Source of the DNA: Nemertoderma westbladi
Taxonomy: Eukaryota > Animalia > Xenacoelomorpha
NCBI GenBank assembly: GCA_032718475.1
Contig: JAUCBJ010000054.1
Span: forward strand, 1 to 64,000
DNA length: 64,000 bases
Direction of reading: 5' to 3'
The notes under the pieces are model-generated. The model searched no databases and had not been told where the DNA came from. It saw only the letters and a list, made by a program, of their open reading frames with translations. The position numbers and the translations under genes were made by a program. Shown here one piece after another: positions 17,180 through 46,890 of the stretch. The stretch's first letter is position 1; every line of letters starts with the position of its first letter.

Positions 17180-17743
17180 CTAACTATATACCTGTTCCCC
17201 TTTAATCGCTCTGTCTATCATTTCAGTTACCATTTGGTTACAAAGTGCCGCATACGGGTTTCGTGATAAAACAAGTTTTTTTGCCAACGGTTCCCCTAGA
17301 TTAGCTGCAGCCGTAAAATCGTTGCCGGAATCTTCTTCCCTGCCTTCTATGTGGTGCAGGATGGCCCGTTGGGTGTAGGCCAGAGACGCCACCCTCCCTT
17401 TCCCGTTACTCAGCTCGATCGCTTTATTGAGGTCCCGCAGTGCCGCAGGGGTATCGTTATTGAGACGATGCAGCTGCCCTCGGTTGTTATAAGCCGAGGC
17501 CCATCTCGGCGACAGCTGTATGACCTGCGACAATTGAGCTATTCCCCCGGACAGGTCTCCGTTCTCAGCCAACTTTACTGCTTCTACCTCCAGGGCCTTG
17601 GTTTGGATTGCGTCGGGTTCATCTAGGTCATCGGGTTCCGTTGGCTGGTCTGCTGGTTGGAAGTAAGGGAAGTCCGGGTTGAATATAACATGGAGGATGT
17701 GCTCGTCTGTGCTGGGAGACCATTCAGCTGTTTGACCAGACAT
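17180..17743 (-). CDS. TTC36: Tetratricopeptide repeat protein 36 (187 aa, intronless)
   Basis: DEHILHVIFNPDFP N-terminus, TPRs (ASAYNNRGQ, LRDLNKAIELS, AYTQRA) and the diagnostic C-terminal NPYAALCNQM. Confidence 0.92.
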   Translation of the reverse strand: MSGQTAEWSPSTDEHILHVIFNPDFPYFQPADQPTEPDDLDEPDAIQTKALEVEAVKLAENGDLSGGIAQLSQVIQLSPRWASAYNNRGQLHRLNNDTPAALRDLNKAIELSNGKGRVASLAYTQRAILHHIEGREEDSGNDFTAAANLGEPLAKKLVLSRNPYAALCNQMVTEMIDRAIKGEQVYS

Positions 17744-19329: not shown

Positions 19330-20190
19330 AAAATATACAGTGCCAGAAAAAAATAAGGCGATTAAAATATGGCAAACAGTGATAAAAAATAATTATTTGG
19401 GGAGATAGACCCAGGGTGAGAAGGAAAAGAGCGCATCGAAGGTCAGTCGCGCATGGGGGAATGCCGGGGCAAGATTTGAAGTGCAATTTAGTGTCAGCCG
19501 GATTGTTGCACAGCAAGCAGATGCAACCATCATCCACTTTCCAACAGTTGGGACTGCTGCAAAGAGTCTGATGACACCCGTTGGAGAGAAGCAACGCCGC
19601 TGCTCGGCGGCGGAAGCCGGACAGGCCTCCCAACCTGATGTCACAATCGGGGTTGACGACGTTGTCTACGGCGTCTTATATCGCAGTAGAGGAGGAGATC
19701 TTGCTTACTCCACACCACAGTTTAAAATGAAAGGCGCGACATTTGCGAACATGTTCTAGAACGGCAACATCCTCGGTGTGTGTGAAAATATCGCACCCAT
19801 GCGTGACTGCAGGGAAGACCACCGAGAGCCATAGACGTTTTGCTGAGTCTAACGAGATCAGAGATAAATTTATTTTCGAGGCTAAATGGACACAGCATGC
19901 CAGACCCCTTTTGTGCAAGTGTGCAAAGTGACCGCTGGGTCCATTTTTGTTTGAGAGAGTTATACCGCGATAATTAAACTCACTGACAAATTCGATCTTC
20001 GTACCATTGTAAATTAGAACATCATTGTTACATATGCGACCTCCCCGGCGAAATTTTATGGCTTTGGTTTTGGATAAATTGACGGTTAGGTCATTTACCT
20101 TACAATAGTCAGCTAGAGAATCAAGACCATTTTGTACGTCAACAATCGAGTTACCATATATTACCAGGTCGTCGGCATACATAATAACAA
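19330..20190 (-). mobile_element. 5'-truncated non-LTR retrotransposon (RT C-terminal half plus Cys/His finger)
   Basis: YADDLVI...LTVNLSKTK...IEFVSEFNY in ORF 19676-20182, then CICLLCNNPADTKLHFKSC in a downstream frame. Confidence 0.85.
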
Positions 20191-21015: not shown

Positions 21016-21998
21016 GCGCCAGTTCCCCAGAAGGGTGACCTAACAGTTGGTGCCAGTTCCATATAGAAGGGTAATCTAACAGTTGGTGCCAGTTCCCCAG
21101 AAGGGCAACCTTACAGTTGGTGCCAGTTATATAGAAGGGCAACCTAACAGTTGGTGCCAGTTCCCCAGAATGGCAACCTAACAGTTGGTGCCAGTTCCAT
21201 AGAAGGGCAACCTAACAGTTGGTGCCAGTTCCCCAGAAGGGCAACCTAACAGTTGGTGCCAGTTCCATAGAAGGGCAACCTAACAGTTGGTGCCAGTTCC
21301 ATAGAAGGGCAACCTAACAGTTGGTGCCATTTCCATAGAAGGGCAACCTAACAGTTGGTGCCAATTCCCCAGAAGGGCAACCTAACAGTTGGTGCCAAAT
21401 CCATAGTAGGGCAACCTAACAGTTGGTGCCAGTTCCATAGAAGGGCAACCTAACAGTTGGTGCCAGTTCCATAGAAGGGCAACCTAACAGTTGGTGCCAG
21501 TTCCATAGAAGGGCAACCTAACAGTTGGTGCCAGTTCCACAGAAGGGCAACCTAACAGTTGGTGCCAGTTCCCCAGAAGGGCAACCTAACAGTTGGTGCC
21601 AGTTCCCCAGAATGGCAACCTAACAGTTGGTGCCAGTTCCATAGAAGGGCAACCTAACAGTTGGTGCCAGTTCCCCAGAAGGGCAACCTAACAGTTGGTG
21701 CCAGTTCCATAGAAGGGCAACCTAACAGTTGGTGCCAGTTCCATAGAAGGGCAACCTAACAGTTGGTGCCATTTCCATAGAAGGGCAACCTAACAGTTGG
21801 TGCCAGTTCCCCAGAAGGGCAACCTAACAGTTGGTGCCAAATCCATAGTAGGGCAACCTAACAGTTGGTGCCAGTTCCCAAGAAGGGCAACCTAACAGTT
21901 GGTGCCAGTTCCCCAGAAGGGCAACCTAATAGTTGGCGCCAGTTCCACAGAAGGGCAACCTAACAGTTGGTGGCAGTTCGAAAGAAGGGCAACCTAAC
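21016..21998 (+). repeat. 34-bp minisatellite, ~29 copies, derived from LINE RT coding sequence
   Basis: Unit agttggtgccagttcc(at/cc)agaagggcaacctaac; the last copy runs into the RT frame. Confidence 0.95.
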
Positions 21999-22700
21999 AC
22001 TCTAAGGTTATTTTCGGGGAATCTCATTGATATCGATTGCTGCAAAGCTATACAATAGAATTCTATTAAATCGCATCAGGGATCCCATTGAGAGACAGAC
22101 TGCTCCATGGAAATCAGAATGGGTTCCGTAAAGGTCGTGGGACCAATAATCCCATTTTGGCACTTATAAGGATAATTGAAGAGTTATCAAAAAAGAAAGA
22201 CAGGCATCTGGCTGTTATCTTTGTTGACTTCTTCAAGGCCTTTAATTCAGTCTCTCGCTCACGTATGTTCAGCATACTTTCATTATATGGGATTCCTGAT
22301 GAAATTATTGTAGCAATCAGATCAGTATACGATGGTTCGACAACATTTGTGTCTACTGTTGACGGTGACACAGAACCATTCGAAGTGTTATGTGGAGTCC
22401 TCCTGGGAGACACACTTGCATCTTTCTTATAATTGTGATTGATTCTGCTCTACTTCAACAAAGCCGCCTCCGCTTTGCAGGACATTGCTTTCGACATGAG
22501 GACAAGCATGTCTACAATTTTGTGCTTTGACAGCCCCATGGAGAAAATATGCCCATGATTTTATTGACTTAAAGAAAGTCAAGAAAGGACATGACTTAAT
22601 GGACACTGGCCTTGGAGATGCGGATGATCTCGTGAAAGTCATGGGGGATAGGGAGTTGTGCGGCGCAATTTTGTCGAAAAGTCGACATATCATTATTTAT
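21960..22700 (+). mobile_element. Degraded RTE-like LINE RT fragment
   Basis: FRGISLISIAAKLYNRILLNRI, QNGFRKGRGT, IFVDFFKAFNSV and GVLLGDTLASFL, followed by a deletion to the 3' end. Confidence 0.85.
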
Positions 22701-23732
22701 GCACACTGCATTGGGGCATGCCAATTGTGGATTGCATGGAAAAATAGTTTGGTTATAAGCTGGCATAGCATCTTAATGCGCAGTTTCAATGCTGCAGGCC
22801 GATTATATTCTAGTAGTTAGTAATAGCCTTTCCAAAAACATCACAGCCAATAATATTAATCAATGTGTCTCCCATGGCACAACAAATCCGCAATATTTTG
22901 GAGCAAAGCAAGGAAAAATCAAGAATCAACATCACCTGAAACACACTGCGATCCCATTATAGTAACAAATTTAATGAAGATTCAGCAAAGAGGAAGACTG
23001 CAAGTAAACCATCAAATATCGGAGGACATTGAATACAGATGTTTCATTCGGAAATTAGCCCCTTATTGTATTTATAAGGAGAGTCAGTTCTAAGCAGCCT
23101 CTATTCAATAGTAAGGGACGGAATACCTACAACCAATCATCTTACAGGCACATAGTATCTATCAATATTTTATTCAAAATACTAAAACATATACTTCTTA
23201 TCTTAAATTTCCTAACAAATTCCAAAGGTTACAGCAACCAGATGACTTATAAAATGATACGTAGTACCGATTTAGCCATTGCTACTATTCCACAGTAGAA
23301 TGCATAGAGTAGTACCCATCTATGGAATTACCTTTATCTATAATGTCAATTACATTAATTAGACATATAGAGTAGAGTCCGCTCCATTTTAGACTACTAC
23401 AAATCCATTCCTCAAATTTGGTGAGGTGACAAACTGCGGTGTCAATTATTCAAGTTTTGGCGGTTGTGTTTCCTTTGATTTTTACAGTATATGAGGACTA
23501 TAAACCCATTTCAGATGTATTATCGGTGTGGTGCAGTAAAAGCAGTACATTTATATAACTGCCTATAGCATTAATTTTGCTGGAGAAATTTAAATATATC
23601 AGTAACATTATTCCTCAAACTCTCATTCTCATGGTTCTTTCTATACTTACAAATGTAGAAACTAAAGCGATATTAAATCTTTATATTGTTCTATAAGAGC
23701 GACTTATATCACCGGTAGTAATTATTAACATA

Positions 23733-25569
23733 TTAATCACTATTTAGGGGTTCAACTATAGACTTGACGAAGTTAACATTGGTAACTATGGCTGTGGTAG
23801 CAACAACAATACGGTAACCATGGTTTCGTGCGAGAAAACGTAACGCCGCGACTTCCGACCGAGTGCATCCTCCAAGGAAATAAACGAGCACAACTCTCGG
23901 GGTAGTGGAGAAATCGTCAGGGAGAGTTAGAGAAAGAACCAGAGAATGAACCGTGGAAGAGTTCCATTAGGGTAGGAGTGAACCCGCCCTTCAGGAGAAC
24001 CTTCTCGATGAGTTTAATACTAAGAGGGGAATAAACACCGTTGAATAAGTATGACATATGTGTGGGTTCATAGTAATCCGAAAATTTATTTACTTTTGGT
24101 TTTTCTCCCACTTCTTTGTAACACTTACGAAAGTTGTAATGAATTGATGGCTGGTCTGCCGAGTTAACTAGGAGTCCGAGATTTCTGAGATCCCGGAATA
24201 TCGGGAGGTGCCGGTAGCCATAGCTGTGTAGGTACTGCATCACAAGGGAATTATAATCAAATGATGGAAGAGTGCCATTTGTTAACGAGGCTAAACACAG
24301 TAGTCTCAGTGCGTGGTAACATGGCAACTGTTGGTTGATATAATCTTCTATAAACTCGAGACATTTCCGGAAGTAAGAGTTCCCCAGGAACTTCTTTTCA
24401 TTTTCGACAAACAACTGGCGGAATTCCTCATCACTTTTCTCATAGATCCATTCGATCATATTGAGATGACATTCGTATGACGTTCGGGGTTTTGTAGCAA
24501 TAGCTGCTGCTAATTTGCTCATCATGAATTTCAGCCAATCTCCACTCTCCTCGATATTTTTATTATTTTCTGAGAGAATCTTAGGCAAATCTTCCATTCT
24601 TTTACGTTCCTCTTTGAGAGCGCAATGGACCACAGAAAAGTGTTTGTCTCTGGAATTGTTAAACATAACATCAGATGAGTCCATGAGAAACCTATACCCG
24701 TCTAACATTACAGTCCCATCAACTCGGATGCCAAACCTCTCATCTAATATACCTTCATATATATTTTGGGAGAGAAGTGGTGTGACTAAATCTGCGTTTC
24801 GGTCTATTAGAAATAAATATCCAAAACTGGAAGTGTTGCTTTGCTCAGGTTGATTATTCATCAACTGTTCTCTAGTCATTTCGTAGACTTCCGTCGCACA
24901 GCAACCAACTCCGTAGACTTTGGGAATAATTCCGAATGCCGATTGAATTGAACACAAAGAACGAGAGATGCTTTTTAAACCGAAATTAACTTTATTTAAA
25001 AAGTATTCCGAATAAAATGATGGATTGTCAGCTGACATTAAATCGTCATCAACCACTACCAAGTCGAGTTTGAACTCATCTATAGTGACGTCATCAAATA
25101 TACCCCGATGATTATCTATTTCATTTCTACATATGTAATTAATTTCCGGCACCGCAAACAGATGGAATTTCCTCTTGGGACGGTTTGTTTTTTTCTTTTT
25201 TGTGATATTTCTCAGGATTTCTTGTTCTTGTTGTTGCATGTGTTGTATCTGTCTAGCCATAATCCGGATATTGGATAGACTTGGCCGCATTATGAAGACT
25301 ATATCTAGAGTGGACTCTGCAAGATAACTACCCTTCAAAGTCTTTGCTCCAAAGTTTTCAAAGTTTTCAAAGTTGTAGAATTTGTCAACATGATGCTTCC
25401 TAAGTTCCTTTAGAGATGATATTTTTTCGATAGCATTGATTACATCGGCCCCTATAACTAGACCATTCCTACCTGGGTAGTTGTCGAGAAGGTTAAATAA
25501 TTCATTTTCAGAGGTTTGATTGAATAGGCCAATATTTGGTAAACTTTCAGTAGTTGTTAGGGAATCCAT
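23733..25569 (-). CDS. VPS33B: VPS33B-like Sec1/Munc18 protein, copy 1; a 1-nt insertion at ~23920 truncates the C-terminus (pseudogene or assembly error)
   Basis: LFLIDRNADLVTPLLSQNIYEGILDERFGI and MSYLFNGVYSPLS. gtcagggagag here versus gtcaggagag in copy 2. The restored frame continues VVLVYFLGGCTRSEVAALRFL...VEPLNSD* (stop 23733-23735). Confidence 0.8.
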
Positions 25570-25676
25570 CACGCTTTCAGTTCTCTAATTATAATTATGA
25601 AATTCCTAGGCAATAAAAAATCATCTAGATACTCATTTCGTTTTAATATTTTAATATTTTAGTTTAGAATTAAAAT

Positions 25677-26172
25677 TATAAATAAATTACTCACTTATAA
25701 ATAAATTACTCACTTATAAATTTGTCAATAATTTATAAATAAATTACTCACTTATAAATAAATTACTCACTTATAATTAAATTACTCACTTATAAATAAA
25801 TTACTCACTTATAAATAAATTACTCACTCATAAATAAATTACTCACTTATAAATAAATTACTCACTCATAAATAAATTACTCACTTATAAATAAATTACT
25901 CACTCATAAATAAATTACTCACTTATAAATTTGTCAATAATTTATAAATAAATTACTCACTTATAAATAAATTACTCACTTATAATTAAATTACTCACTT
26001 ATAAATAAATTACTCACTTATAAATAAATTACTCACTTATAAATTTGTCAATAATTTATAAATAAATTACTCACTTATAAATAAATTACTCACTTATAAT
26101 TAAATTACTCACTTATAAATAAATTACTCACTTATAAATAAATTACTTACTTATAAATAAATTACTCACTTA
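25677..26172. repeat. 19-bp AT-rich minisatellite with a recurring spacer (higher-order structure)
   Basis: Unit ataaataaattactcactt; tttgtcaataattt interrupts it three times (~25720, ~25930, ~26043). Confidence 0.92.
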
Positions 26173-27169
26173 GAATTAAATGTTATAAGTAAATAATATA
26201 AATATATAAATAAATTTATATAAATAATAATATAAGTTAATGCACTCCTGATTGAAGCTCTGGCGTCGTATATTTTTCACATTTTTCTCAGTACCTGTCT
26301 TTTAATTGCCTTAATTTTAATTTTAATTTTGTGCATTTCGCATTTTGAATAAATTTTTTGATTACTAGCAATTGTAAACTTTAAAAATAATTATCTATAT
26401 GTTCTAGAACATATATATTTTTTATTATATTAATGTTCTAGAATAGTGCATAATATTTATATTTTGTTTTAGAGCCCTACAATGTTGCCATGGTAACAAT
26501 GATTTATGTTATAAAAATGTAGTGCTATACTGAACTGTTACCGTGAAAAATGTAATGTTGGATGAGTGTAGACTATGTTCTAGAACATAATATATACAAA
26601 TCAAGGAAATTTTAGCACGTTAAAAAAATAATGATGGGGATGTCGACATGCCGAACTAGTGCCGATTATAATAGGAAATAATCTACCATTTCAGTTAATT
26701 TTGTTTTAATTCTGTAATTTATACCTGAGAAGCAAATACAGTATTTACAGTTGAAATAGTAAATTGACGTATCTTGCAGCTCTCGCTTTCGGGCCACGCA
26801 ATGTCATGATAGAACCCGTAGCGCGTGAGCAGTTGGAGGCAGGAAACGTGGCGAGGTTGCGGTGAGCTGTCGGGATGTGGTGAGCGTTTAACAGACAGTC
26901 TCAAGCGTTGCTCGATATTCGATCAACCAATCTCGACGCCGAGTCTGTTACTCGCTCAACCATGTCGGTATTGGAGGTGGCGGAGAATGAGAAGATGAGA
27001 CTGTAGGGGCCTACTCTGCTGCAGTTACAGCACGTCGAACAGACTTCTCACCTTTCGTGGTTTCCTGCGATGGTGTTTCCCGCAGGCTAACAGACTTCTA
27101 CAACTATAACTACAACACGCCTGGGATCAACCGTAATTCACTGTTATGGGGGTGTTCGATCCAGGGTAC

Positions 27170-28740
27170 TGTTTGCAGTTGTGCGCGGGACCTCGTATTG
27201 TTTGTGTGGGTCACGCACCAAGTGGGGTAGTGGTGTGGGGTTTGTTTGAGGTTGTGTCTATAGGTATGTCAATCATTCGTTCCAATTCGCTTGAACTGAT
27301 GGCAAATAACAATAGCATACTATACTGTACATACATACAATACATACTGCGTAATATCCTTTGACAAAGCATCCCAGCCCGGAGTCTTATAGGGCAGATA
27401 GCGGGCCTTTTATATAATAGTTGAAGATTATATTATCGGAGAGATCAGCTAACCTTGTTTGAGTCCGAGGTTTGTGTTGTGATAATATGTATCCGCGAGA
27501 TTTCCGAATTTGAAAAATACGTTGGTTGCCTTGTAGTAGTCTACTAAGAGAATGCATAAATGCAGGTTGATGACTTCTGATAATTTGCGGAACAGTGTTC
27601 TGTAGTCAACATTGACAAAAGCAGAGGCAATGTCTACCTGTGCTATGTATAAGGGAGAGCCTCTGGAGTTGAAGAATTTTATGATTTCGTGCGCTAGGGT
27701 CGCTGCTATGTCTCATCCTACTTTCTTCTGATAAGCTATCGATAGATGGCTAGCTACTATTGTATCCTGCAGGTACTTCTTGAGTATAAGGTATTCCCAT
27801 ACCTTCGCAAAACGCTGATATTAGAGATGGGTCTGTAAGATTTTACATCCTCCGTATTTTTTCCATGACTCTTATGTACCGGTGTTACAATGGATTAATT
27901 AAATAGAGTCGGCTCCTTGCCTAGTCTGAACGAAACGTTGAACCCTAAATTTAAGTGCTTGCAAATTATTTCTGGTGATAGGTAGGTGAGATTCTCAATA
28001 GTTAATGAGCTGTTTGTTATCAGGTGCTTTTCCTTTCGCGAGTGCCATAATAGCTATCCCGACCTCCACATCGCTAAGTTCTGGAACCTCAAAAGTAGAT
28101 CTCTTATCTTGTATCCCTTCGACAATGTCAAAAAGTCATCAGGGGTTCGTAATTTCGATGACAAATGTGTACGCAGCACGTCCTTCATTCCCTCTGCCAT
28201 ATGTTCTCTACCTTTGATTTAGTTTTTAGGTTAAAGTGACTCCAAAAGGCACTGGATGAGCCATTGTTTGATGTGATTTTTGATAGCGCCTTATCAACGT
28301 GGGCCTTGCTCAGTTTCAATTGTAGCTTTCGAACAGTGGACCTGCCATTGTTTGCGTGGGTCATGCACGAAGTGGCGTAGTGGTGTGGGGTTGAGGTTGT
28401 GCGCGGGACCTGCTATTGTTTGGGTGGGTCATGCACCAAGTGGCGTAGTGGTGTGGTGTGGGGTTGAGGTTGGGCGCGGGACGTGCCATTGTTTGCGTGG
28501 GTCATGCACCAAGTGGCGTAGTGGTGGGAATTTGTTTGAGGTTGTGCGCGGGACCTGCCATTGTTTGCGTGGGTCATGCACCAAGTGGCGTAGTGGTGTG
28601 GAGTTTGTTTGAGGTTGTGCGCGGGTCACGCACCAAGTGGCGTAGTGATGTGGGGTTGAGGTTGTGTGCGGGACCTGCCATTGGTTGCGTGGGTCATGCA
28701 CCAAGTGGCGTAGTGGTGTGGGGTTTGGAAAACCCCACAC
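27170..28740. repeat. ~70-bp GC-rich tandem repeat (27170-27258 and 28338-28740) split by a LINE remnant
   Basis: Unit gaggttgtgcgcgggacctgccattgtttgcgtgggtcatgcaccaagtggcgtagtggtgtgggg; ends in the hairpin gtggggtttggaaaaccccac. Confidence 0.8.
27260..28335 (-). mobile_element. Degraded CR1/L2-group LINE RT fragment
   Basis: Minus-strand broken frames read VTPVHKSHGKNTEDVKSYRPISNISVL and VDIASAFVNVDYRTLFRKL. Confidence 0.7.
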
Positions 28741-28930
28741 CCACCGATCTGCCTTTACACTAAAGTATCAACTTATTTTAAATTTCCCGCCATTTTTCTT
28801 ATAGTTAATGATAAATATTCTGCTGGTGGTGGCTGGTTGCGATTTATGTATGTTTTATGTATTTTTTATTGTTTAAAATAAATAATATGTCGTGCAAATT
28901 GACGTGTCTTACCAAGCATGAAAGATTTGG

Positions 28931-29613
28931 GGTGCTACTTCGTCATGTCGACACCCCCCTGCTATTTTTTTACCTGTCACTTTTTGTGTGTTTTTGGTGT
29001 TTTTTTTATATGGATGAATGTTCTAGAACATTAGTAGATTTTTTTTAAGGTAGCTAGTGTTTTATTAAATTGTAAAATTACGTTATTTTTTTTATTTTTG
29101 TTATTGCTTTTTATTAACCAATTTTATTTATCACTTTTTTACGAATTTTAATGGTATTTTATTATGGTAGCTAGTATTATTATTATGTTTTTGTTATGTT
29201 TTAGTTATTATGTTTAATCCATTATTAATGAAATATATTTAGTTACGGAATATATGTAATAAAATGATTTGCATTTAAACTCATTGTTACCATGATTTTT
29301 TTACATTTGTTTTCTAGAATTGTTGTTTACGTTTACGAAGAGAAAGCATTGATAGATGTATTTTATTAAAAGGACTAAGAGTATTATTACACCAGAACAT
29401 TACAAGACAAGGTCTTTATAATCCCAACGTGTTTGAGATTGTCAATTTGAGGCATAAAAGTAAAATTTTTTATATTAAAAAAACACTAGCTACCATAAAA
29501 ACATTTTACTAATGTTCTAGAACATTCACCAATATCAAAAAATCAGTTTAATACAAAAAAAAGTGACAGGTAAAAAAAATTGGTCAAGGGTGTCGTCATG
29601 ACGAAGTAGTACC
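28931..29613. mobile_element. Merlin-like MITE with 8-bp TSD
   Basis: TIRs ggtgctacttcgtcatg / catgacgaagtagtacc; flanking AGATTTGG at 28923-28930 and 29614-29621; internal gttctagaac motifs. Confidence 0.8.
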
Positions 29614-29909
29614 AGATTTGGAGTGTTGTTTTATAAAACGTTTCTGTCAGAATATTTTCGAATAGTTCATTGAACCAGTTGATAGCTTGGATCATTCGGA
29701 TTAAAGTACTGAAGTAAAAAAATCATCAAAATTTTTTTTTGTTCCAAATTTTGGCTAAAACAGAAATCAAAGTTTAGTAATATATTAAGAAACAATGACA
29801 AATATTGCTAGCTAATTAGTAGAATACAACTATGCGTGACCATAGTAACAAAATTCAGTATTGCAAAAACCATTTGCTATAGAAAACGCATAGAATAGGT
29901 ATCATCAAG

Positions 29910-31212
29910 GCCGCTTCACCCCCTCGCACACAGAAACTTGTTGCTGGACCCCCTCACACACAGAAACTTGTTGCTGGACCCCCTCACACACAGAACTGTG
30001 TAAGGGGGTCCTGCAACAAGTTTCTGTGTGAAAGGGGGTCCAGCAACAAGTTTCTGTGTGTAAGGGGGTCAAGCAACAAGTTTCAGTGTGTGAGGGGGTC
30101 CAGCAACAAGTTTCTGTGTGTGAGGGGGTCCAGCAACAAGTTTCTGTGTGCGAAGGGGATCCAGCAACAAGTTTCTGTGTGTGAGGGGGTCCAACAACAA
30201 GTTTCTGTGTGCGAGGGGGTCCAGCAACAAGTTTCTGTGTGCGAGGGGGTCCAGCAACAAGTTTCTGTGTGTGAGGGGGTCCAGCAACAAGTTTCTGTGT
30301 GTGAGGGGGTCCAGCAACAAGTTTATGTGTGTGAGGGGGTCCAACAACAAGTTTCTGTATGTGAGGGGGTCCAGCAACAAGTTTCTGTGTGTGAGGGGGT
30401 CCAGCAACAAGTTTATGTGTGTGAGGGGGTCCAGCAACAAGTTTCTGTGTGTGAGGGGGTCCAGCAACAAGTTTCTGTGTGTGAGGGGGTCCAACAACAA
30501 GTTTCTGTATGTGAGGGGGTCCAGCAACAAGTTTATGTGTGTGAGGGGGTCCAACAACAAGTTTCTGTATGTGAGGGGGTCCAGCAACAAGTTTATGTGT
30601 GTGAGGGGGTCCAACAACAAGTTTCTGTATGTGAGGGGGTCCAACAACAAGTTTCTGTATGTGAGGGGGTCCAGCAACAAGTTTATGTGTGTGAGGGGGT
30701 CCAACAACAAGTTTCTGTATGTGAGGGGGTCCAGCAACAAGTTTCTGTGTGTGAGGGGGTCCAACAACAAGTTTCTGCATGTGAGGGGGTCCAACAACAA
30801 GTTTCTGTGTGCGAGGGGGTCCAGGAACAAGTTTCTGTGTGTGAGGGGGTCCAGCAACAAGTTTCTGTGTGTGAGGGGGTCCAGCAACAAGTTTATGTGT
30901 GTGAGGGGGTCCAACAACAAGTTTCTGTATGTGAGGGGGTCCAGCAACAAGTTTCTGTGTGTGAGGGGGTCCAGCAACAAGTTTATGTGTGTGAGGGGGT
31001 CCAACAACAAGTTTCTGTATGTGAGGGGGTCCAGCAACAAGTTTATGTGTGTGAGGGGGTCCAACAACAAGTTTCTGTATGTGAGGGGGTCCAACAACAA
31101 GTTTCTGTATGTGAGGGGGTCCAGCAACAAGTTTCTGTGTGTGAGGGAGTCCAGCAACAAGTTTCTGCATGTGAGGGGGTCCAACAACAAGTTTCTATGT
31201 GCGAGGGTGCGG
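29910..31212. repeat. 30-bp minisatellite (~40 copies) preceded by ~2.5 inverted copies (foldback-like)
   Basis: Unit gtgagggggtccagcaacaagtttctgtgt; its reverse complement occupies 29918-29995. Confidence 0.95.
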
Positions 31213-31303
31213 AATACGATGGGGGGTGTCTAGAGAAAAACTAAATGAAAAGTAGCTTACTTTGTCATTTAGTTTTTCTCTAGACACCCCTCATCGTATT
31301 CCG
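31210..31303. repeat. Near-perfect 94-bp palindrome (minimal MITE-like hairpin)
   Basis: cggaatacgatggggggtgtctagagaaaaactaaatga...tcatttagtttttctctagacacccctcatcgtattccg. Confidence 0.85.
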
Positions 31304-32964
31304 TTGGTTTATCAAAATATACTGTATTAACGGGGAGCGTGCCTGATTAATGCTTATTTATTTTGGTGCATAAATTCCCACTTAAAGAATATATTTTTTA
31401 CATCTACTTTTGTTATACAGTCCCTAGTCAGCCCTCGTTACGGTTTGACTTCTCCAGCGTCTGGCGGCAACCTAAGTAAGTACGTAACGCTAGTTTTGGT
31501 CTGAATCAACACATCTACTATCTTCAAATCTACTGTATATTAAATTCACTACTTATATTACCCTTATAGGCCTAGGCCTTCTGCAGTTTCCATACCTTAC
31601 TGAAGTACCGGTCACATAAGTACATAACAGTACATACAGTACATAAGTACCGTAGGTTTTAACTATATTTTACTGCTCTTATGTAGTTGAATTCAATTTT
31701 GGTCCTGACGATACCCCAACGGGGAGAAATAAATTGACCGTTAATTTACAACAACATTTTAAACTTGGCGATAAACCTCCTGCACCACCACCCCAACACT
31801 TTGGTGTGCTGACATTCGCAATAATTTCTGCCCAAACTGATGAAAGTAACGGTAGGTGCAGAGGCCTACGGCTGTAGGTACCGGTTTATATAATATATAA
31901 TTTTGTTGCGAGCGACAAAATAGTTGAGCCGTAGCATACTGTATAGTGGTATCATTCGTGGGGTCGGTCTGTGCCATTTTTAAATGCCCATTCCGCTGCT
32001 ATTATTAAACCAATTTTCAACGACATTTAATAAAATAACGAAGTTCAACACCCACAGTCATAGTCTAATGAAGATAAGTTAAAACGTTGCAAGCATTCAG
32101 GTTCTGTTGGAACCGTTCATCAGGTGTACAGTATATCGTTATTTTTTTTTAACAATATATCCCTGGTGAAGTGTTCCAACTGAACCTGATAGCTTTGCAA
32201 CTTATCTTCATTAGACTAAAAAAATTAAAAAAAATAATGTGTTCAGATAGGGGGGGAAACTGGACGCAATAAAAATTCGTTCCTCTCCAGAGGAAATTCG
32301 ACGCAAATAACAGCTGCTTACTCTCAAAAATAGAAGAGTAACCCTGTTCTATTGTATTTAATTTATTGTTTTGTTTAAAATAACGCACCACTGTAACCTG
32401 CTCTTTTCCCTAAATTGAGAAATTAACATGGAGTTGGATATGAATTCTCCAAGATGGGATTGCCCCCCCCCCCCCCCACTGTCTCATTGTCAACCCAAAT
32501 CAACCATCCATAAGTTATCACCATCCACGGCCCACTGCTCGTCGAGGACACCCCCCACCCCCCCCCCCCCCCCCCCCCCCCCCATCAATTACATTTCATG
32601 ATATTGCATTATAATTATATCACTTGCCCTTTAAGTAGTAGTTGTAGTATTTCGGGCACGGACAACCCCCTCCGAGGCGCTCTTAGTAGGAGATATTAAA
32701 CACAAGAGTTTTATTATTAGATCGTAATTCAAGCAGCTATTGGCGATTGAAATTCTAGAAACGCTTGTTTTGATAATCAGTATATTATTGTATACTACAG
32801 ACATACGGCATAGTGGTGTAGGTATAATGTCCTGGATCCCAGATACGTTTATTGGCTACAAAATATTACTGTCTTAGATGTGAGAGCTAAGGTGTTTTTG
32901 AGATTGACTAGTTAATGAAAATAGTAAATATTTTGTACTGAATATTTTATCTTTGTTGGCCTAT

Positions 32965-34848
32965 TTAACTATTTCGGGGTTCAACTATAGACTTGACGAA
33001 GTTAACATTGGTAACTATGGCTGTGGTAGCAACAACAATACGGTAACCATGGTTTCGTGCGAGAAAACGTAACGCCGCGACTTCCGACCGAGTGCATCCT
33101 CCAAGGAAATAAACGAGCACAACTCTCGGGGTAGTGGAGAAATCGTCAGGAGAGTTAGAGAAAGAACCAGAGAATGAACCGTGGAAGAGTTCCATTAGGG
33201 TAGGAGTGAACCCGCCCTTCAGGAGAACCTTCTCGATGAGTTTAATACTAAGAGGGGAATAAACACCGTTGAATAAGTATGACATATGTGTGGGTTCATA
33301 GTAATCCGAATACTTATTTACTTTTGGTTTTTCTCCCACTTCTTTGTAACACTTACGAAAGTTGTAAAGAATTGATGGCTGGTCTGCCGAGTTAACTAGG
33401 AGTCCGAGATTTCTGAGATCCCGGAATATCGGGAGGTGCCGGTAGCCATAGCTGTGTAGGTACTGCATCACAAGGGAATTATAATCAAATGATTGAAGAG
33501 TGCCATTTGTTAACGAGGCTAAACACAGTAGTCTCAGTGCGTGGTAACATGGCAACTGTTGGTTGATATAATCTTCTATAAACTCGAGACATTTCCGGAA
33601 GTAACGGTTCCCCAGCAACTTGTGTTCCACACCCAGCTTCTTGTATTCCTCCTCCACCAGAAACTGATCTTCCATACCAGATCCAACGTACAAGTGCCGA
33701 AACTCCTTCACGTCGGTGTTCATTACCCACTCGCACATACTCAGATGGTTTTGAACACTAGCACGCGATTTTTTATATAATTTAACATCCTTTCGAATAA
33801 ATTCATCAGTTTCTTCACTTGTAAATGATTTTGAGTTGGTGACTTCGTGTATGTGCTTCAGTTGTTTAGCTTTCTCAGTGAGGTAGAATATCGCACCTGG
33901 TATACTTAGGTCGCGAATACCAGCAAACACAGTGTCGTTAGATGTTGCTTCAATTCTTTTATTGTCTTTTGGTTCTGGCATCTCCCAGATTAACTCGCCT
34001 TCAACTCGGATGCCAAACCTCTCATCTAATATACCTTCATAGATATTTTGGGAGAGAAGTGGTGTGACTAAATCTGCGTTTCGGTCTATTAGAAATAAAT
34101 ATCCAAAACTGGAAGTGTTGCTTTGCTCAGGTTGATTATTCATCAAATGTTCTCTAGTCATTTCGTAGACTTCCGTCGCACAGCAACCAACTCCGTAGAC
34201 TTTGGGAATAATCCCGAATGCCGATTGAATTGAACACAAAGAACGAGAGATGCTTTTTAAACCGAAATTAACTTTATTTAAAAAGTATTCCGAATAAAAT
34301 GATGGATTGTCAGCTGACATTAAATCGTCATCAACCACTACCAAGTCGAGTTTGAACTCATCTATAGTGACGTCATCAAATATACCCCGATGATTATCTA
34401 CTTCATTTCTACATATGTAATTAATTTCCGGCACCGCAAACAGATGGAATTTCCTCTTGGGACGGTTTGTTTTTTCATTGACATCGTACGGCGGTTTGTT
34501 TACTGTTGTATTGAGTCGTTTCTCGTTGTCATATTCTATGTGTTTAGCCATATCTCGTATGTTGCCTAGACTCGGACGGAATATGTAAACTCTTTGATTA
34601 GAACTGGAATCTTTGAAAAAGGTTTGAATAGAAGAAGTGGAATCCGTTATAAAAGGAAATATTCTATTTATATTTTGATTTTTCGAAATTTCATCCATAT
34701 TGTACATTATATTTTTCGTGGCCTTAATAACGCTCTGTTCAATAACTATATCCTTAATACCTGGATATTTATCGAGAAGGGTAATCAATTCCTTTCTGGA
34801 TGTTTCGGTTAACTTGAATATGTTAGGTAACATTGAAGAAGAAGCCAT
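32965..34848 (-). CDS. VPS33B: VPS33B-like Sec1/Munc18 protein, copy 2 (627 aa, intact, intronless)
   Basis: IDRNADLVTPLLSQNIYEGILDE, LRLLCLASLT, YLHSYGYRHL, YLFNGVYSPLS and VYFLGGCTRSEVAALRFL...IVVATTAI. The B-type assignment rests on the GxYxPLS and C-terminal pattern and is less certain than the family. Confidence 0.85.
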   Translation of the reverse strand: MASSSMLPNIFKLTETSRKELITLLDKYPGIKDIVIEQSVIKATKNIMYNMDEISKNQNINRIFPFITDSTSSIQTFFKDSSSNQRVYIFRPSLGNIRDMAKHIEYDNEKRLNTTVNKPPYDVNEKTNRPKRKFHLFAVPEINYICRNEVDNHRGIFDDVTIDEFKLDLVVVDDDLMSADNPSFYSEYFLNKVNFGLKSISRSLCSIQSAFGIIPKVYGVGCCATEVYEMTREHLMNNQPEQSNTSSFGYLFLIDRNADLVTPLLSQNIYEGILDERFGIRVEGELIWEMPEPKDNKRIEATSNDTVFAGIRDLSIPGAIFYLTEKAKQLKHIHEVTNSKSFTSEETDEFIRKDVKLYKKSRASVQNHLSMCEWVMNTDVKEFRHLYVGSGMEDQFLVEEEYKKLGVEHKLLGNRYFRKCLEFIEDYINQQLPCYHALRLLCLASLTNGTLQSFDYNSLVMQYLHSYGYRHLPIFRDLRNLGLLVNSADQPSILYNFRKCYKEVGEKPKVNKYSDYYEPTHMSYLFNGVYSPLSIKLIEKVLLKGGFTPTLMELFHGSFSGSFSNSPDDFSTTPRVVLVYFLGGCTRSEVAALRFLARNHGYRIVVATTAIVTNVNFVKSIVEPRNS

Positions 34849-34957
34849 CTCTCTAATTTGTGATTAATATTATTATCGCACTCTAAATTAGTTACTAAGT
34901 TATCTTTGTTTCCAGTACCGTTGCATGCGTTAATTACCTACAATCTATAATAATTGT

Positions 34958-35915
34958 ATATTACACTAACTATATTACACTAACTATATTACACTAACTA
35001 TATTACACTAACTATATTACACTAACTATATTACACTAACTATATTACACTAACTATATTACACTAACTATATTACACTAACTATATTACACTAACTATA
35101 TTACACTAACTATATTACACTAACTATATTACACTAACTATATTACACTAACTATATTACACTAACTATATTACACTAACTATATTACACTAACTATATT
35201 ACACTAGCTATATTACACTAACTGTATTACACTAACTATATTACACTAACTATATTACCCTAACTATATTACACTAACTATATTACACTAACTATATTAC
35301 ACTAACTATATTACACTAACTATATTACCCTAACTATATTACACTAACTATATTACACTAACTATATTACACTAACTATATTACACTAACTATATTACAC
35401 TAACTATATTACACTAACTATATTACACTAACTATATTACACTAACTATATTACACTAACTATATTACACTAACTATATTACCCTAACTATATTACACTA
35501 ACTATATTACACTAACTATATTACACTAACTATATTACACTAACTATATTACACTAACTATATTACACTAACTATATTACACTAACTATATTACACTAAC
35601 TATATTACCCTAACTATATTACACTAACTATATTACACTAACTATATTACACTAACTATATTACACTAACTATATTACACTAACTATATTACACTAACTA
35701 TATTACACTAACTATATTACACTAACTATATTACACTAACTATATTACACGAACTATATTACACTAACTATATTATACTGAACTATATTACACTAACTAT
35801 ATTACACTAACTATATTACACGAACTATATTACACTACTATATTACACTAACTATATTACACTAACTATATTACACTAACTATATTACACTAACTATATT
35901 ACACTAACTATATTT
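34958..35915. repeat. 14-bp minisatellite, ~68 copies
   Basis: Unit tatattacactaac, starting ~110 bp upstream of the VPS33 copy 2 start codon. Confidence 0.95.
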
Positions 35916-36381
35916 CACTACCCACTACCCGTATAGTGTCATTTTCTGATGAAGATGATTTTCAAGAAGTATTGTTCACTGAAGGCCATTTATTATATTT
36001 AATAAATACGCGATGTTCTGGAACATTTCGTTTATGTATAAATAGAAAGGAGCAGGTTAAAGTGGCACGTTATTTTAACCAAAACAATAAACTAAACACA
36101 ATAGAACAGGTTACAGTTTTATTTTTGAGAGTAAGCAGCTGTTATTTGCGTCCAATTTCCCCTGGAGAGGGATGCATTTTTATTGCGTCCAGTCCCCCCC
36201 CCCCCCCTCCCCCCCTATCTGGAATAGCTACGCCGTAGATATATTATAGGCATACCGTTGTTGCCCAGGTCCGGTCCGGTCCGGTCCGGGTCATCAGAAC
36301 ATGACACTGTATTACGGGTCATGGTGTAACGTACCGGTAGCTCGTATGAACTACATCGTTATTACACTGTTATTGGTATTT

Positions 36382-37488: not shown

Positions 37489-37907
37489 CGGAATATACGG
37501 ATATACACCATGACCCGTACACCACGTCCTGGAATATACGGATATACACCATGACCCGTACACCACGTCCTGGAATATACGGATATACACCATGACCCGT
37601 ACACCACGTCCTGGAATATACGGATATACACCATGACCCGTACACCACGTCCTGGAATATACGGATATACACCATGACACGTACACCACGTCCTGGAATA
37701 TACGGATATACACCATGACCCGTACACCACGTCCTGGAATATACGGATATACACCATGACCCGTACACCACGTCCTGGAATATACGGATATACACCATGA
37801 CCCGTACACCACGTCCTGGAATATACGGATATACACCATGACCCGTACACCACGTCCTGGAATATACGGATATACACCATGACCCGTACACCACGTCCTG
37901 GAATATA
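37489..37907. repeat. 41-bp minisatellite, ~10 copies
   Basis: Unit ggaatatacggatatacaccatgacccgtacaccacgtcct. Confidence 0.95.
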
Positions 37908-40533: not shown

Positions 40534-43500
40534 TTTATTAGCTTATCTTTAGTTTAATTGTCTTCTTTATGGGGTCGATCTGCTCTCCTTCGCTCTCTGT
40601 CGCGTACCATATTGGGTGACCTACTTTATTAGTTCATCTTTAGTTTCATTTTCGTCTTTATGGGGTCGATCTGCTCTCCTTCGCTCTCTGTCGTGTACCA
40701 TATTGGGTGATCTACTTTATTAGTTCATCTTTAGTTTAATTGTCTTCTTTATGGGGTCGATCTGCTCTCTTTCGCTCTCTGTCGCGTACCATATTGGGTG
40801 ATCTACTTTATTAGTTCATCTTTAGTTTCATTTTCGTCTTTATGGGGTCGATCTGCTCTCCTCCGCTCTCTGTCGCATACCATATTGGGTGATCTACTTT
40901 ATTAGTTCATCTTTAGTTTAATTGTCTTCCTTATGGGGTCGATCTGCTCTCCTTCGCTCTCTGTCGTGTACCATATTGGGTGATCTACTTTATTAGTTCA
41001 TCTTTAGTTTCATTTTCGTCTTTATGGGGTCGATCTGCTCTCCTCCGCTCTCTGTCGCGTACCATATTGGGTGATCTACTTTATTAGTTTATCTTTAGTT
41101 TAATTGTCTTCTTTATGGGGTCGATCTGCTCTCCTTCGCTCTCTGCCGCGTACCATATCGGGTGATCTAATTTATTAGTTCATCTTTAGTTTCATTTTCG
41201 TCTTTATGGGGTCGATCTTCTCTCCTTCGCTCTCTGTCGCATACCATATTGGGTGATCTACTTTATTAGTTCATCTTTAGTTTAATTGTCTTCTTTATGG
41301 GGTCGATCTGCTCTCCTTCGCTCTCTGTCGCGTACCATATTGGGTGATCTACTTTATTAGTTCACCTTTAGTTTAATTGTCTTCTTTATGGGGTCGATCC
41401 GCTCTCCTTCGCTCTCTGTCGCGTACCATATTGGGTGATCTACTTTATTAGTTCATCTTTAGTTTCATTTTCGTCTTTATGGGGTCGATCTGCTCTCCTC
41501 CGCTCTCTGTCGCGTACCATATTGGGTGATCTACTTTATTAGTTCATCTTTAGTTTCATTTTCGTCTTTATGGGGTCGATCTGCTCTCCTCCGCTCTCTG
41601 TCGCGTACCATATTGGGTGATCTACTTTATTAGTTTATCTTTAGTTTAATTTTCGTCTTTATGGGGTCGATCTGCTCTCCTTCGCTCTCTGTCGCGTACC
41701 ATATTGGGTGATCTACTTTATTAGTTCATCTTTAGTTTCATTTTCGTCTTTATGGGGTCGATCTGCTCTCCTTCGCTCTCTGTCGCGTACCATATTGGGT
41801 GATCTACTTTATTAGTTCATCTTTAGTTTCATTTTCGTCTTTATGGGGTCGATCTGCTCTCCTTCGCTCTCTGCCGCGTACCATATCGGGTGATCTAATT
41901 TATTAGTTCATCTTTAGTTTCATTTTCGTCTTTATGGGGTCGATCTGCTCTCCTTCGCTCTCTGCCGCGTACCATATCGGGTGATCTAATTTATTAGTTC
42001 ATCTTTAGTTTCATTTTCGTCTTTATGGGGTCGATCTGCTCTCCTTCGCTCTCTGCCGCGTACCATATCGGGTGATCTAATTTATTAGTTCATCTTTAGT
42101 TTCATTTTCGTCTTTATGGGGTCAATCTGCTCTCCTTCGCTCTCTGTCGCGTACCATATTGGGTGATCTACTTTATTAGTTCATCTTTAGTTTCATTTTC
42201 GTCTTTATGGGGTCGATCTGCTCTCCTCCGCTCTCTGTCGCGTACCATATTGGGTGATCTACTTTATTAGTTTATCTTTAGTTTAATTGTCTTTTTTATG
42301 GGGTCGATCTGCTCTCCTTCGCTCTCTGCCGCGTACCATATCGGGTGATCTAATTTATTAGTTCATCTTTAGTTTCATTTTCGTCTTTATGGGGTCGATC
42401 TGCTCTCCTTCGCTCTCTGTCGCGTACCATATTGGGTGATCTACTTTATTAGTTCATCTTTAGTTTCATTTTCGTCTTTATGGGGTCGATCTGCTCTCCT
42501 CCGCTCTCTGTCGCGTACCATATTGGGTGATCTACTTTATTAGTTCATCTTTAGTTTCATTTTCGTCTTTATGGGGTCGATCTGCTCTCCTCCGCTCTCT
42601 GTCGCGTACCATATTGGGTGATCTACTTTATTAGTTTATCTTTAGTTTAATTGTCTTCTTTATGGGGTCGATCTGCTCTCCTTCGCTCTCTGCCGCGTAC
42701 CATATCGGGTGATCTAATTTATTAGTTCATCTTTAGTTTCATTTTCGTCTTTATGGGGTCGATCTGCTCTCCTTCGCTCTCTGTCGCATACCATATTGGG
42801 TGATCTACTTTATTAGTTCATCTTTAGTTTAATTGTCTTCTTTATGGGGTCGATCTGCTCTCCTTCGCTCTCTGTCGCGTACCATATTGGGTGATCTACT
42901 TTATTAGTTCACCTTTAGTTTAATTGTCTTCTTTATGGGGTCGATCCGCTCTCCTTCGCTCTCTGTCGCGTACCATATTGGGTGATCTACTTGATTAGTT
43001 CATCTTTAGTTTAATTGTCTTCTTTATGGGGTCGATCTGCTCTCCTCCGCTCTCTGTCGCGTACCATATTGGGTGATCTACTTTATTAGTTCATCTTTAG
43101 TTTCATTTTCGTCTTTATGGGGTCGATCTGCTCTCCTTCGCTCTCTGTCGCGTACCATATCGGGTGATCTAATTTATTAGTTCATCTTTAGTTTAATTGT
43201 CTTCTTTATGGGGTTGATCTGCTCTCCTTCACTCTCTGTCGCGTACCATATTGGGTGATCTACTTTATTAGTTCATCTTTAGTTTAATTGTTTTCTTTAT
43301 GGGGTCGATCTGCTTTCCTTCGCTCTCTGTCGCGTACCATATTGGGTGATCTACTTTATTAGTTCATCTTTAGTATAATTGTCTTCTTTATGGGGTCGAT
43401 CTGCTCTCCTTCGCTCTCTGTCGCGTACCATATTGGGTGATCTACTTTATTAGTTCATCTTTAGTTTCATTTTTGTCTTTATGGGGTCGATCTGCTCTCC

Positions 43501-44361
43501 TTCGCTCTCTGTCGCGTACCATATTGGGTGATCTACTTTATTAATTCATCTTTAGTTTAATTGTCTTCTTTATGGGGTCGATCTGCTCTCCTTCGATCTT
43601 TGTCGCGTACCATATTGGGTGATCTACTTTATTAGTTCATCTTTAGTTTCATTTTCGTCTTTATGGGATTGATCTGCTCTCCTTCGCTCTCTGTCGCGTA
43701 CCATATTGGGTGATCTACTTTATTAGTTCACCTTTAGTTTAATTGTCTTCTTTATGGGGTCGATCTGCTCTCCTTCGCTCTCTGTCGCGTACCATATTGG
43801 GTGATCTACTTTATTAGTTCATCTTTAGTTTCATTTTCGTCTTTATGGGGTTGATCTGCTCTCCTTCGCTCTCTGTCGCGTACCATATTGGGTGATCTAC
43901 TTTATTAGTTCATCTTTAGTTTCATTTTCGTCTTTATGGGGTCGATCTGCTCTCCTCCGCTCTCTGTCGTGTACCGTATTGGGTGATCTACTTTATTAGT
44001 TTATCTTTAGTTTAATTGTCTTCTTTATGGGGCCGATCTGCTCTCCTTCGCTCTCTGTCGCGTACTATATTGGGTTATCTACTTTATTAGTTCATCTTTA
44101 GTTTCATTTTCGTCTTTATGGGGTCGATCTGCTCTCCTCCGCTCTCTGTCGCGTACCATATTGGGTGATCTACTATATTAGTTCATCTTTAGTTTCATTT
44201 TCGTCTTTATGGGGTCGATCTGCTCTCCTCCGCTCTCTGTCGCGTACCATATTGGCTGATCTACTTTATTAGTTCATCTTTAGTTTCATTTTCGTCTTTA
44301 TGGGGTCGATCTGCTCTCCTCCGCTCTCTGCCGTGTACCATTTGGGTGATCTACTTTATTA
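40534..44361. repeat. 91-bp satellite, ~42 copies, two interspersed variants, derived from the 3' end of the adjacent fibrinogen-like gene
   Basis: Unit ctactttattagttcatctttagttt(cattttcg/aattgtct)tctttatggggtcgatctgctctccttcgctctctgtcgcgtaccatattgggtgat. Confidence 0.95.
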
Positions 44362-46444: not shown

Positions 46445-46890
46445 TTACCAAAATATCACGTGGGGAGGAATACGGAACTCTAGCCAAACACCGACACCGA
46501 CTACAATCCCGACCACCACAACCACAATACTAATTACCAGTCCGTAAAATAATCGTTTATTTTTCAGTCTATCATTTTGAATTCTCCTTAATTGCGCTTT
46601 GCGCTTGAATTTCCTCAACTTGTCTGGCTCCTCTTGCGCTGTATCGTATGATTGATCCTCCGCAGTTTCAAATGATTCATCTTCGGATGCGATAGAAGAT
46701 GGCATATCGGAGAAACGTTAATCAACTGATTGTAATTTTTATATAATTTTACAGGTAACTCTTATACTGTATACGGCGTTCTAAACTCTAGGTTAATTTG
46801 CATGTAATATTTATCTTTAGGCCTACGTTATTAGCTACTGTAGTGTAATAAATTCCGGCTATTACTTTGAAGGCGTTGCTGCTTTTATGA
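46445..46890 (-). pseudogene. Truncated duplicate of the FReD gene's 5' end (upstream DNA, cytosolic tail and TM only)
   Basis: ORF 46445-46705 is near-identical to the first ~75 aa of 44659-45186; ~180 bp of upstream sequence is also shared. Confidence 0.85.

What the first reader, a model, noticed from the sequence alone, without database searches (positions are those of the whole stretch)
23733..34848. VPS33 paralog pair: homogenised scaffold with two swapped-out SNARE-contacting domains
Seen: the copies are almost nucleotide-identical in two blocks (24719-~25193 vs 34001-~34475; ~23745-24393 vs ~32975-33621). They are barely alignable in the first ~125 aa and in the ~110-130 aa after ERFGIRV, with abrupt boundaries and open frames in both divergent segments. 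Established: in Sec1/Munc18 proteins domain 1 contacts syntaxin, and domain 3a (just after the TPL...YEG motif) templates SNARE assembly. Inference: an old duplication under ongoing gene conversion, where selection keeps only the specificity domains distinct, giving two VPS33 variants for different SNARE sets or lysosome-related organelles. This is my best candidate for an undescribed system here.
Basis: partly seen in the sequence, partly recalled or inferred. Interest (0 to 1): 0.82.

Follow-up and report, generated by a model that had tools for sequence, protein, structure and literature searches.

The report
Twin VPS33B genes, divergent SNARE-facing parts
An animal carries two neighbouring copies of the membrane-fusion gene VPS33B that are about 99% identical in two blocks but only 23-33% identical in protein in two others, likely because gene conversion keeps copying the shared scaffold while selection likely keeps apart the surfaces predicted to grip the fusion (SNARE) proteins.

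Summary
The mosaic is real. Copies A (25569-23733, minus) and B (34848-32965, minus) have intronless CDSs and fall in the animal VPS33B clade. Two blocks (478 and 661 nt) are 98-99% identical. The N-terminal ~125 codons (33% aa, dS about 1.3) and ~110-128 codons of domain 3a (23% aa, dS saturated) are old-diverged, and the flanks do not align. Short-read contigs from two samples fork at the block ends, arguing against an assembly artefact. Reading: an old tandem duplication under continuing gene conversion. New here: domain 3a, the slowest segment in 39 other VPS33B, lies 2.0x (A) and 1.5x (B) too far from them, while shared blocks sit at 1.0x. Residues equivalent to the tested Vps16-binding sites lie in a shared block. 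Against: breakpoints miss domain borders by 17-41 residues and lie 2-13 codons from indels (a neutral barrier); copy A has a +1 frameshift in the window, absent from all four runs laid; a third, non-homogenised paralog exists; expression and SNARE partners are untested. This is a known process (opsin or ATP1A1 type divergence islands) in a new protein family. The scan had not noted it on other DNA.

The parts
32965..34848 (-). VPS33B-like copy B, intronless CDS, 627 aa
   Evidence: ORF; Pfam Sec1 E 1.3e-66; AlphaFold model pLDDT 81, pTM 0.86; best fold matches are Vps33 structures, TM about 0.78
23733..25569 (-). VPS33B-like copy A, intronless CDS; the window's ORF stops at 23917 (550 aa), and the homologous tail continues in another frame to a stop at 23733-23735
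   Evidence: Pfam Sec1 E 5.6e-54
34476..34848 (-). Diverged segment 1 of B (residues 1-125: N-terminal three quarters of domain 1)
   Evidence: 33% aa, dN 0.60, dS about 1.3 against A; domain 1 = B 1-166 by mapping to C. thermophilum Vps33
25194..25569 (-). Diverged segment 1 of A
33998..34475 (-). Homogenised block 1 in B (end of domain 1, first half of domain 2, first helix of domain 3a)
   Evidence: 99.0% to A; 5 differences
24716..25193 (-). Homogenised block 1 in A
33628..33997 (-). Diverged segment 2 of B (residues ~284-407: beta-hairpin and helical hairpin of domain 3a, a 17-residue insert, first helix of 3b); a few mismatches continue to residue 415
   Evidence: 23% aa, dS saturated; 1.5x outgroup distance; helices 316-339 and 344-387 in the model
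24400..24715 (-). Diverged segment 2 of A
   Evidence: 2.0x outgroup distance; 5 of 7 variants seen in other samples are synonymous
32968..33627 (-). Homogenised block 2 in B (most of domain 3b, second half of domain 2); ends at the stop codon; holds N429, Y469 and L472, the positions matching the Vps16-binding residues A411, H451 and L454 of C. thermophilum Vps33
23739..24399 (-). Homogenised block 2 in A
23920..23922 (-). One extra base in copy A of the window (short homopolymer), giving a frameshift and early stop: assembly error or young allele
   Evidence: absent in contigs of 4 of 4 runs (table 4)

Best explanation
These are two tandem VPS33B-type genes from a likely old duplication, whose shared scaffold is likely kept near-identical by repeated gene conversion while selection likely holds apart the surfaces predicted to bind SNAREs, so the two proteins would dock on the same adaptor but handle different SNAREs. 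Shown: two copies; 98-99% identity in two blocks; deep divergence in two segments and in the flanks; position inside the animal VPS33B clade; excess change in domain 3a of both copies; mostly synonymous variation in copy A's private segments. From known structures: in Vps33 the R-SNARE runs along the domain 3a hairpin to the 3a/3b interface, the Qa-SNARE crosses to a pocket on domain 1, and Vps16 binds the opposite face, chiefly through domain 3b and not 3a. Inferred: conversion tracts that carry one copy's domain 3a into the other are removed by selection; indels that then built up inside the islands sharpened their edges; both proteins bind one VIPAS39-like partner; they serve different fusion steps or cell types. 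The case is stronger for domain 3a than for the N-terminal segment, which may have escaped conversion passively.
For: Ongoing conversion: 4 base differences in the 475-nt core of block 1, and 4 plus one indel in about 630 nt of block 2, beside dS 1.3 or saturated next door; homology stops at the stop codon; a third paralog outside the cluster is only 77 of 104 nt identical in the same C-terminal stretch (my hand count). Non-neutral domain 3a: among 39 other VPS33B-clade proteins the segment has the shortest mean distance (2.06 against 2.30 and 2.37 for the shared blocks and 2.86 for the N-terminus), yet A and B lie 2.01x (5-95% 1.70-2.37) and 1.48x (1.28-1.79) that distance away, against 1.01-1.02x in shared blocks and 1.04-1.11x in the N-terminus (60 column bootstraps). 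Constraint today: 7 of 10 variants in A's private segments are synonymous where 20% of sites are (binomial P 0.0008). Structure: hairpin wholly inside diverged segment 2; the three tested Vps16-binding positions inside shared block 2. One domain 3a substitution lets worm VPS33A partly stand in for VPS45 (PMC10995724). The neighbouring cystinosin pair, with no internal indel, is similar along its whole CDS, so conversion-like homogenisation here can span more than 1 kb.
Against: Breakpoints miss the domain borders by 41 (domain 1), 17 (3a start) and about 14-30 (3a end) residues. All three internal breakpoints lie 2-13 codons from an indel between the copies, as a neutral barrier would give. 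Random placement of two segments of these lengths covers the hairpin and spares the three 3b positions 12% of the time, so the overlap alone is weak. Acceleration fits relaxed constraint as well as positive selection: of 31 conserved columns in segment 2, A keeps 12 and B 13, against 43 of 53 in block 2. The N-terminal segment is not accelerated. The only 2 variants seen in B's private segments are non-synonymous. Copy A is frameshifted in the window. [quoted passage not shown] The outgroups were found by similarity to B and no close relative was available.
Confidence: 0.48

Rival explanations
1. Neutral escape from conversion. After an old duplication, indels (and the non-homologous 5' flank) blocked heteroduplex extension, so the N-terminus and the indel-bracketed 3a segment dropped out of concerted evolution and drifted under relaxed constraint, because a third paralog does the main job. 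The copies need not differ in SNARE choice.
For: Indels at B 119-123, 289-294 and 382-398 flank the breakpoints; large indels and divergence are known to end conversion (PMC3924837 passages); many conserved 3a residues are lost in both copies; dN/dS about 0.46 in the N-terminal segment; a third paralog exists.
Against: Does not by itself explain why the normally slowest segment is accelerated and the normally fastest is not; both frames stay open through saturated dS; A's private segments show purifying selection now.
Confidence: 0.3
2. Selection keeps the islands apart, but for a partner other than SNAREs, such as a cell-type-specific cofactor or a pathogen or symbiont protein that targets VPS33B.
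For: Acceleration of an exposed hairpin fits an arms race as well; mammalian VPS33B has several non-SNARE partners (PMC9688865 passages); that a bacterial phosphatase targets VPS33B is recalled, not checked here.
Against: The two islands are the two walls of the SNARE cleft in solved Vps33 complexes; no such partner is known here.
Confidence: 0.1
3. Copy A is a recent pseudogene (or null allele), and the mosaic is the relic of a pair that is now collapsing.
For: Frameshift in the window removes the last ~60 residues, which the model of B places in the domain 2 fold; A has the longest branch in segment 2.
Against: The extra base is in a homopolymer and absent from contigs of 4 of 4 runs; 7 of 10 variants in A's private parts are synonymous. 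Even if true, it leaves the older history to be explained.
Confidence: 0.09
4. Assembly artefact: identical blocks produced by collapse or mis-polishing of two diverged paralogs.
For: No read or contig spans a whole copy; the phase between the two diverged segments rests on the window alone.
Against: In runs of two samples and two studies, contigs end at the block edges, both copies' private segments and flanks are present, and each block is one main contig; in run X3 private parts have depth 10-14 and shared blocks 24-28; the window's copies differ at 8 core positions plus the indel, so they are not a plain paste.
Confidence: 0.03

Closest known systems
Animal VPS33B (SM protein of the VPS33B-VIPAS39/VIPAR 'CHEVI' complex; PMC9688865, passages)
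   Same: Sec1 family, Vps33 fold, nests among named VPS33B of lamprey, quail, sea spider, spider, millipede, tick, octocoral and two sponges
   Different: At most 35-36% identical to the top-scoring relatives; intronless CDS; at least three copies in this genome; two of them a conversion mosaic with accelerated domain 3a
Divergence peaks in duplicates under gene conversion: human red/green opsins (Fawcett and Innan 2011, PMC3924837, passages)
   Same: Nearby tandem duplicates, homogenised except where function is thought to differ
   Different: There a narrow peak around two residues in one exon; here two domain-sized islands at 23-33% aa identity, 40% of the protein, in a core trafficking gene; function not shown here
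Leptodactylus ATP1A1 paralogs (bioRxiv 10.1101/2020.08.04.234435, abstract)
   Same: Tandem duplicates of a housekeeping gene in which selection is argued to oppose conversion
   Different: 12 scattered substitutions, shown across species and by protein engineering; here contiguous islands, one species, no assay
C. thermophilum Vps33-Vps16-SNARE structures (PMC3693963, passages and section 11; PMC13507793, parts 1-2 of 5 and supplement passages)
   Same: Same fold (TM about 0.78); gives the domain borders and binding faces used here
   Different: HOPS/CORVET-type single-copy Vps33; contact residues of VPS33B with its own partners were not available

Membership tests
Sec1/Munc18, Vps33 subfamily | Sec1 domain and three-domain arch closest to Vps33 structures | tested here: met
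   Pfam PF00995 above cut-off in both copies; 12 best fold matches are Vps33, E down to 2e-37, against 9e-22 for Munc18-2
Animal VPS33B | Falls in the VPS33B clade of a Vps33 tree | tested here: met
   A and B nest in a 41-row clade (FastTree support 0.99) with 9 named VPS33B clusters. Caveat: the 6 rows looked up outside it were non-animal Vps33; no named animal VPS33A was identified in the tree
Animal VPS33B | Binds VIPAS39/VIPAR rather than VPS16 | not testable with these tools
   No genome held; partner sequences of this animal not available
Concerted evolution by interlocus gene conversion | Patchy near-identity between old paralogs, bounded by homology limits | tested here: met
   98-99% blocks beside dS 1.3 or saturated segments; unalignable flanks
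Concerted evolution by interlocus gene conversion | Paralogs cluster by species in converted blocks and by locus in the others; polymorphism shared between copies | not testable with these tools
   No close relative found (top hits at most 36%); contigs collapse both copies
Selection-maintained divergence island | Excess divergence at the island beyond the segment's normal rate | tested here: met
   Met for domain 3a (1.5-2.0x), not for the N-terminal segment (1.0-1.1x)
Selection-maintained divergence island | Positive selection rather than relaxation, and a functional difference | tested here: inconclusive
   Purifying selection now in A; dS saturated, so no valid dN/dS or McDonald-Kreitman test; no assay
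   Borders missed by 17-41 residues; A and B are sisters in all 7 segment trees, support 0.83-1.0

The most novel reading that the evidence does not exclude
A natural domain-swap experiment: one animal keeps two VPS33B proteins with an identical adaptor-binding chassis and two different SNARE-templating cassettes, so that one VIPAS39 module serves two fusion routes (for example two lysosome-related organelles). It would show that SM-protein SNARE specificity can be re-encoded in domain 3a plus the cleft wall of domain 1 alone, and held there by selection against gene conversion.
Probability: 0.35. Interest if true: 0.75.

Novelty: new member of a known kind. Interest (0 to 1): 0.5.

Why it matters
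How SM proteins encode their choice of SNAREs is still open, and natural SM paralogs differ everywhere, so they do not localise it. This pair differs almost only in domain 3a and the front of domain 1, which gives ready-made matched constructs for binding and swap tests. It is also an extreme case of a divergence island under conversion (99% beside saturation) in a core trafficking gene. If the neutral rival holds, it is a clear example of indel-bounded escape from concerted evolution and of modest interest.

Tried and rejected
No whole genome is held, so the copy number, VIPAS39 and the SNAREs of this animal could not be searched. No RNA holder was listed for copy A; this is no evidence on expression. 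Run X5 (kind guessed; longest contig 11.6 kb) held a 2,167-nt contig of the third paralog at depth 550 and nothing on copy B, and next to none of copy A's sampled words; absence of cover is not counted as evidence. X6 laid nothing. The single-sequence fold was useless (pLDDT 32); the alignment-based one was used. The word-index homolog search found only 5 distant proteins at 22-25%. TUG and TTC36 neighbours gave only distant animal hits (27%; 37-47%), so the lineage was not placed beyond 'fast-evolving animal'. Contig alleles in the shared blocks cannot be assigned to a copy, so shared polymorphism was not scored. Depth in run X2 is uneven (A private 76-80, A 3' flank 43, B private 20, B 3' flank 11) and fits no simple unequal-crossover product; left unexplained. 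No complex prediction was run: no cognate SNARE or VIPAS39 was at hand. Residue lists for the domain 1 SNARE pocket were not in the passages or the supplement passages seen. Literature: VPS33B + paralogs + gene conversion, 0 papers; VPS33 + concerted evolution, 1 unrelated listing; Vps33 + duplication + phylogeny, 6 listed, none on such a pair by title or abstract start; one search returned only generic duplication papers. The library covers open-licence papers only. Earlier scan notes: none on VPS33.
Full report
Observation. The window holds two same-strand genes 9.3 kb apart: B, 34848-32965 (627 aa), and A, from 25569. Self-blastn finds two shared blocks, 478 nt at 99.0% and 661 nt at 98.3%. 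A codon alignment gives 33% amino-acid identity, dN 0.60 and dS about 1.3 (rough, Nei-Gojobori) for B residues 1-125; 98% for 126-283; 23% with saturated dS for 284-411; and 97% for 412-567. The steps take less than ten codons, with a short run of five mismatches at the start of block 2. Similarity ends at the stop codon and the flanks tested (about 105 nt upstream, about 1 kb downstream) do not align. tblastn finds no further copy in the window. Copy A has one extra base at about 23920 that ends its ORF at 550 aa; the homologous tail goes on in another frame.

Is it real? Of 6 runs listed, 4 hold the stretch, from 2 samples and 2 studies; one sample may be the window's source. Laid on A (X1-X4) and on B (X2, X3, X5, X6), contigs of X1, X2 and X3 end at the block edges. 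Both copies' private segments are present in X2 and X3. In X3 private parts have depth 10-14 and the shared blocks 24-28; the tool warns that depth is not copy number. Some junction contigs overlap a block by only 30 letters, below the tool's 31-letter rule for bridging, and no contig spans a gene, so the phase between the two private segments rests on the window. All 4 runs laid on A lack the extra base, but they collapse A and B there. I put the chance that it is an assembly error at about two in three (judgement).

What the genes are. Both pass the Pfam Sec1 cut-off. The best solved relative is human VPS33A (E 3e-46); no VPS33B chain came up in the PDB searches. A model of B from a 20-sequence alignment (pLDDT 81) matches Vps33 structures best. 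The exhaustive search gave 1,581 hits and listed 150. Seven of the top ten clusters are named VPS33B, and none is named VPS33A. In a tree of the 109 of 150 hits of 540-680 aa, A and B are sisters on a long branch inside a 41-row clade (support 0.99) holding 9 named VPS33B clusters; the 6 rows checked outside it are non-animal Vps33. So these are VPS33B-type genes of a fast-evolving animal. In mammals VPS33B works with VIPAS39 apart from HOPS and CORVET and serves lysosome-related organelles and recycling routes (PMC9688865, passages).

A third copy. Contigs in X2 (2,484 nt) and X5 (2,167 nt) match B at 32999-33042 with 6 differences in 44, and their 30-letter loose ends on both sides are homologous to B's neighbouring bases. 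My hand count is 77 of 104 identical, in frame. This is a further VPS33B-like paralog that is not homogenised with A and B. Its place and full sequence are unknown.

Breakpoints against structure. C. thermophilum Vps33 has domain 1 at 1-138, 3a at 249-380 and 3b at 381-501 (PMC3693963, passages). Carried over by hand through, these are B 1-166, 267-~381 and ~382-505. Diverged segment 1 thus covers 125 of 166 residues of domain 1. Segment 2 starts 17 residues into 3a, covers the whole helical hairpin (model helices 316-339 and 344-387) and runs through the first helix of 3b. In the Vps33 template complex the R-SNARE tracks along that hairpin to a pocket at the 3a/3b interface and the Qa-SNARE crosses to a pocket on domain 1 (PMC13507793, parts 1-2 of 5; PMC7470827, passages). 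Vps16 binds the opposite face and does not touch 3a, and paired mutations A411D/H451D or A411D/L454E abolish binding (PMC3693963 section 11); these map to B N429, Y469 and L472 in shared block 2. The fit is approximate, and random placement would give it 12% of the time. I could not map the domain 1 pocket or the domain 1 Vps16 contacts.

Selection or passive escape? If intrinsically variable regions had simply escaped conversion, the diverged segments should be the fast ones in other animals. That holds for the N-terminus (mean distance among 39 outgroups 2.86) but not for segment 2, which is the slowest (2.06 against 2.30 and 2.37). On a fixed topology, A and B lie 2.01x and 1.48x the outgroup distance away in segment 2, against 1.01-1.02x in the shared blocks and 1.04-1.11x in the N-terminus; the bootstrap ranges for segment 2 and the shared blocks do not overlap. 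Limits: outgroups were chosen by likeness to B, only 110 columns were used, and alignment there is uncertain. Variants seen in other samples in A's private segments are 7 synonymous of 10 (P 0.0008 against 20% synonymous sites); B's two are non-synonymous. On the other side, indels lie 2-13 codons from each internal breakpoint, both copies have lost more than half of the conserved residues of segment 2, and a third paralog could have freed them from constraint.

Ongoing or one-off conversion? The block cores differ by about 0.8%, like alleles (0-1.5% in private segments). Conversion needs high similarity over a few hundred bases (PMC3924837, passages), so blocks that had once drifted as far as their neighbours would hardly have been rewritten twice just now. 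Continuing conversion is therefore the inference. It is not shown by cross-species trees or shared polymorphism. The neighbouring cystinosin pair shows the same CDS-limited similarity along its whole length.

Comparison and verdict. The process is known: opsin-type divergence peaks and frog ATP1A1 (abstract). Searches found no report of it for VPS33 or in this form for an SM protein, within an open-licence library. One domain 3a change lets worm VPS33A rescue loss of VPS45 (PMC10995724, part 1 of 3), so the specificity idea is plausible. I rate old duplication plus conversion at about 0.9, SNARE-directed selection as the reason for the islands at about 0.48, and neutral or relaxed escape at about 0.3. 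New member of a known kind; interest 0.5.

Noticed in passing
window 4451-5743 (-), 7641-8948 (-), 12267-13511 (+): Three intronless cystinosin-like (PQ-loop) genes. The first two are 94% identical over the CDS only (4491-5749 vs 7696-8954; 1-6 differences per 100 nt over the first 900 nt, more in the tail; 28 synonymous and 14 non-synonymous codons), with no local alignment beyond it; the third is 33-64% by window. A second lysosomal gene family expanded beside the VPS33B pair.
   Followed up: partly
contigs of runs X2 and X5 matching window 32999-33042: Third VPS33B-like paralog, about 74% identical at the C-terminal end, not homogenised with the pair.
   Followed up: partly
window 25676-26172 and 34957-35920: Each VPS33B copy has a different minisatellite starting about 108 nt upstream of its ATG (19-mer x26; 14-mer x69). 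A's unit reads like a splice donor on the coding strand, and an acceptor-like site lies 36 nt before A's ATG, so there may be a 5' UTR intron with a donor-site satellite like those noted elsewhere in this genome (lead).
   Followed up: no
window 32600-34950 against 23000-25660: In run X2 copy B's private parts have a half to a quarter of copy A's depth, but about equal depth in X3: library bias or copy-number variation.
   Followed up: no
window 14727-16193 (+) and 17180-17743 (-): Intronless TUG/ASPSCR1-like and TTC36-like ORFs; all full-length housekeeping CDSs seen between 4 and 35 kb lack introns.
   Followed up: partly
window 57824-62345 (+): LTR-retrotransposon-like element: a 364-aa ORF overlapping a 1,133-aa ORF with zinc knuckle, RT, RNase H and integrase domains; a 147-nt 100% direct repeat at 57096-57242 and 62409-62555 flanks it.
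   Followed up: no
window 44659-45186 (-), 44965-45370 vs 46484-46888: Transmembrane fibrinogen-C-domain gene fragment with a 92%-identical 414-nt partial duplicate nearby.
   Followed up: no
window 40534-44361, 29997-31207, 21018-21999, 54350-55188, 37490-37907: Large tandem arrays (periods 91, 30, 34, 14, 41); the 30-mer array has a short inverted copy at 29918-29995.
   Followed up: no
window 2353-2691, 19676-20182, 48482-51424: Reverse-transcriptase fragments and LINE-like ORF pieces (the LINE reading of 48482-51424 is by eye).
   Followed up: no
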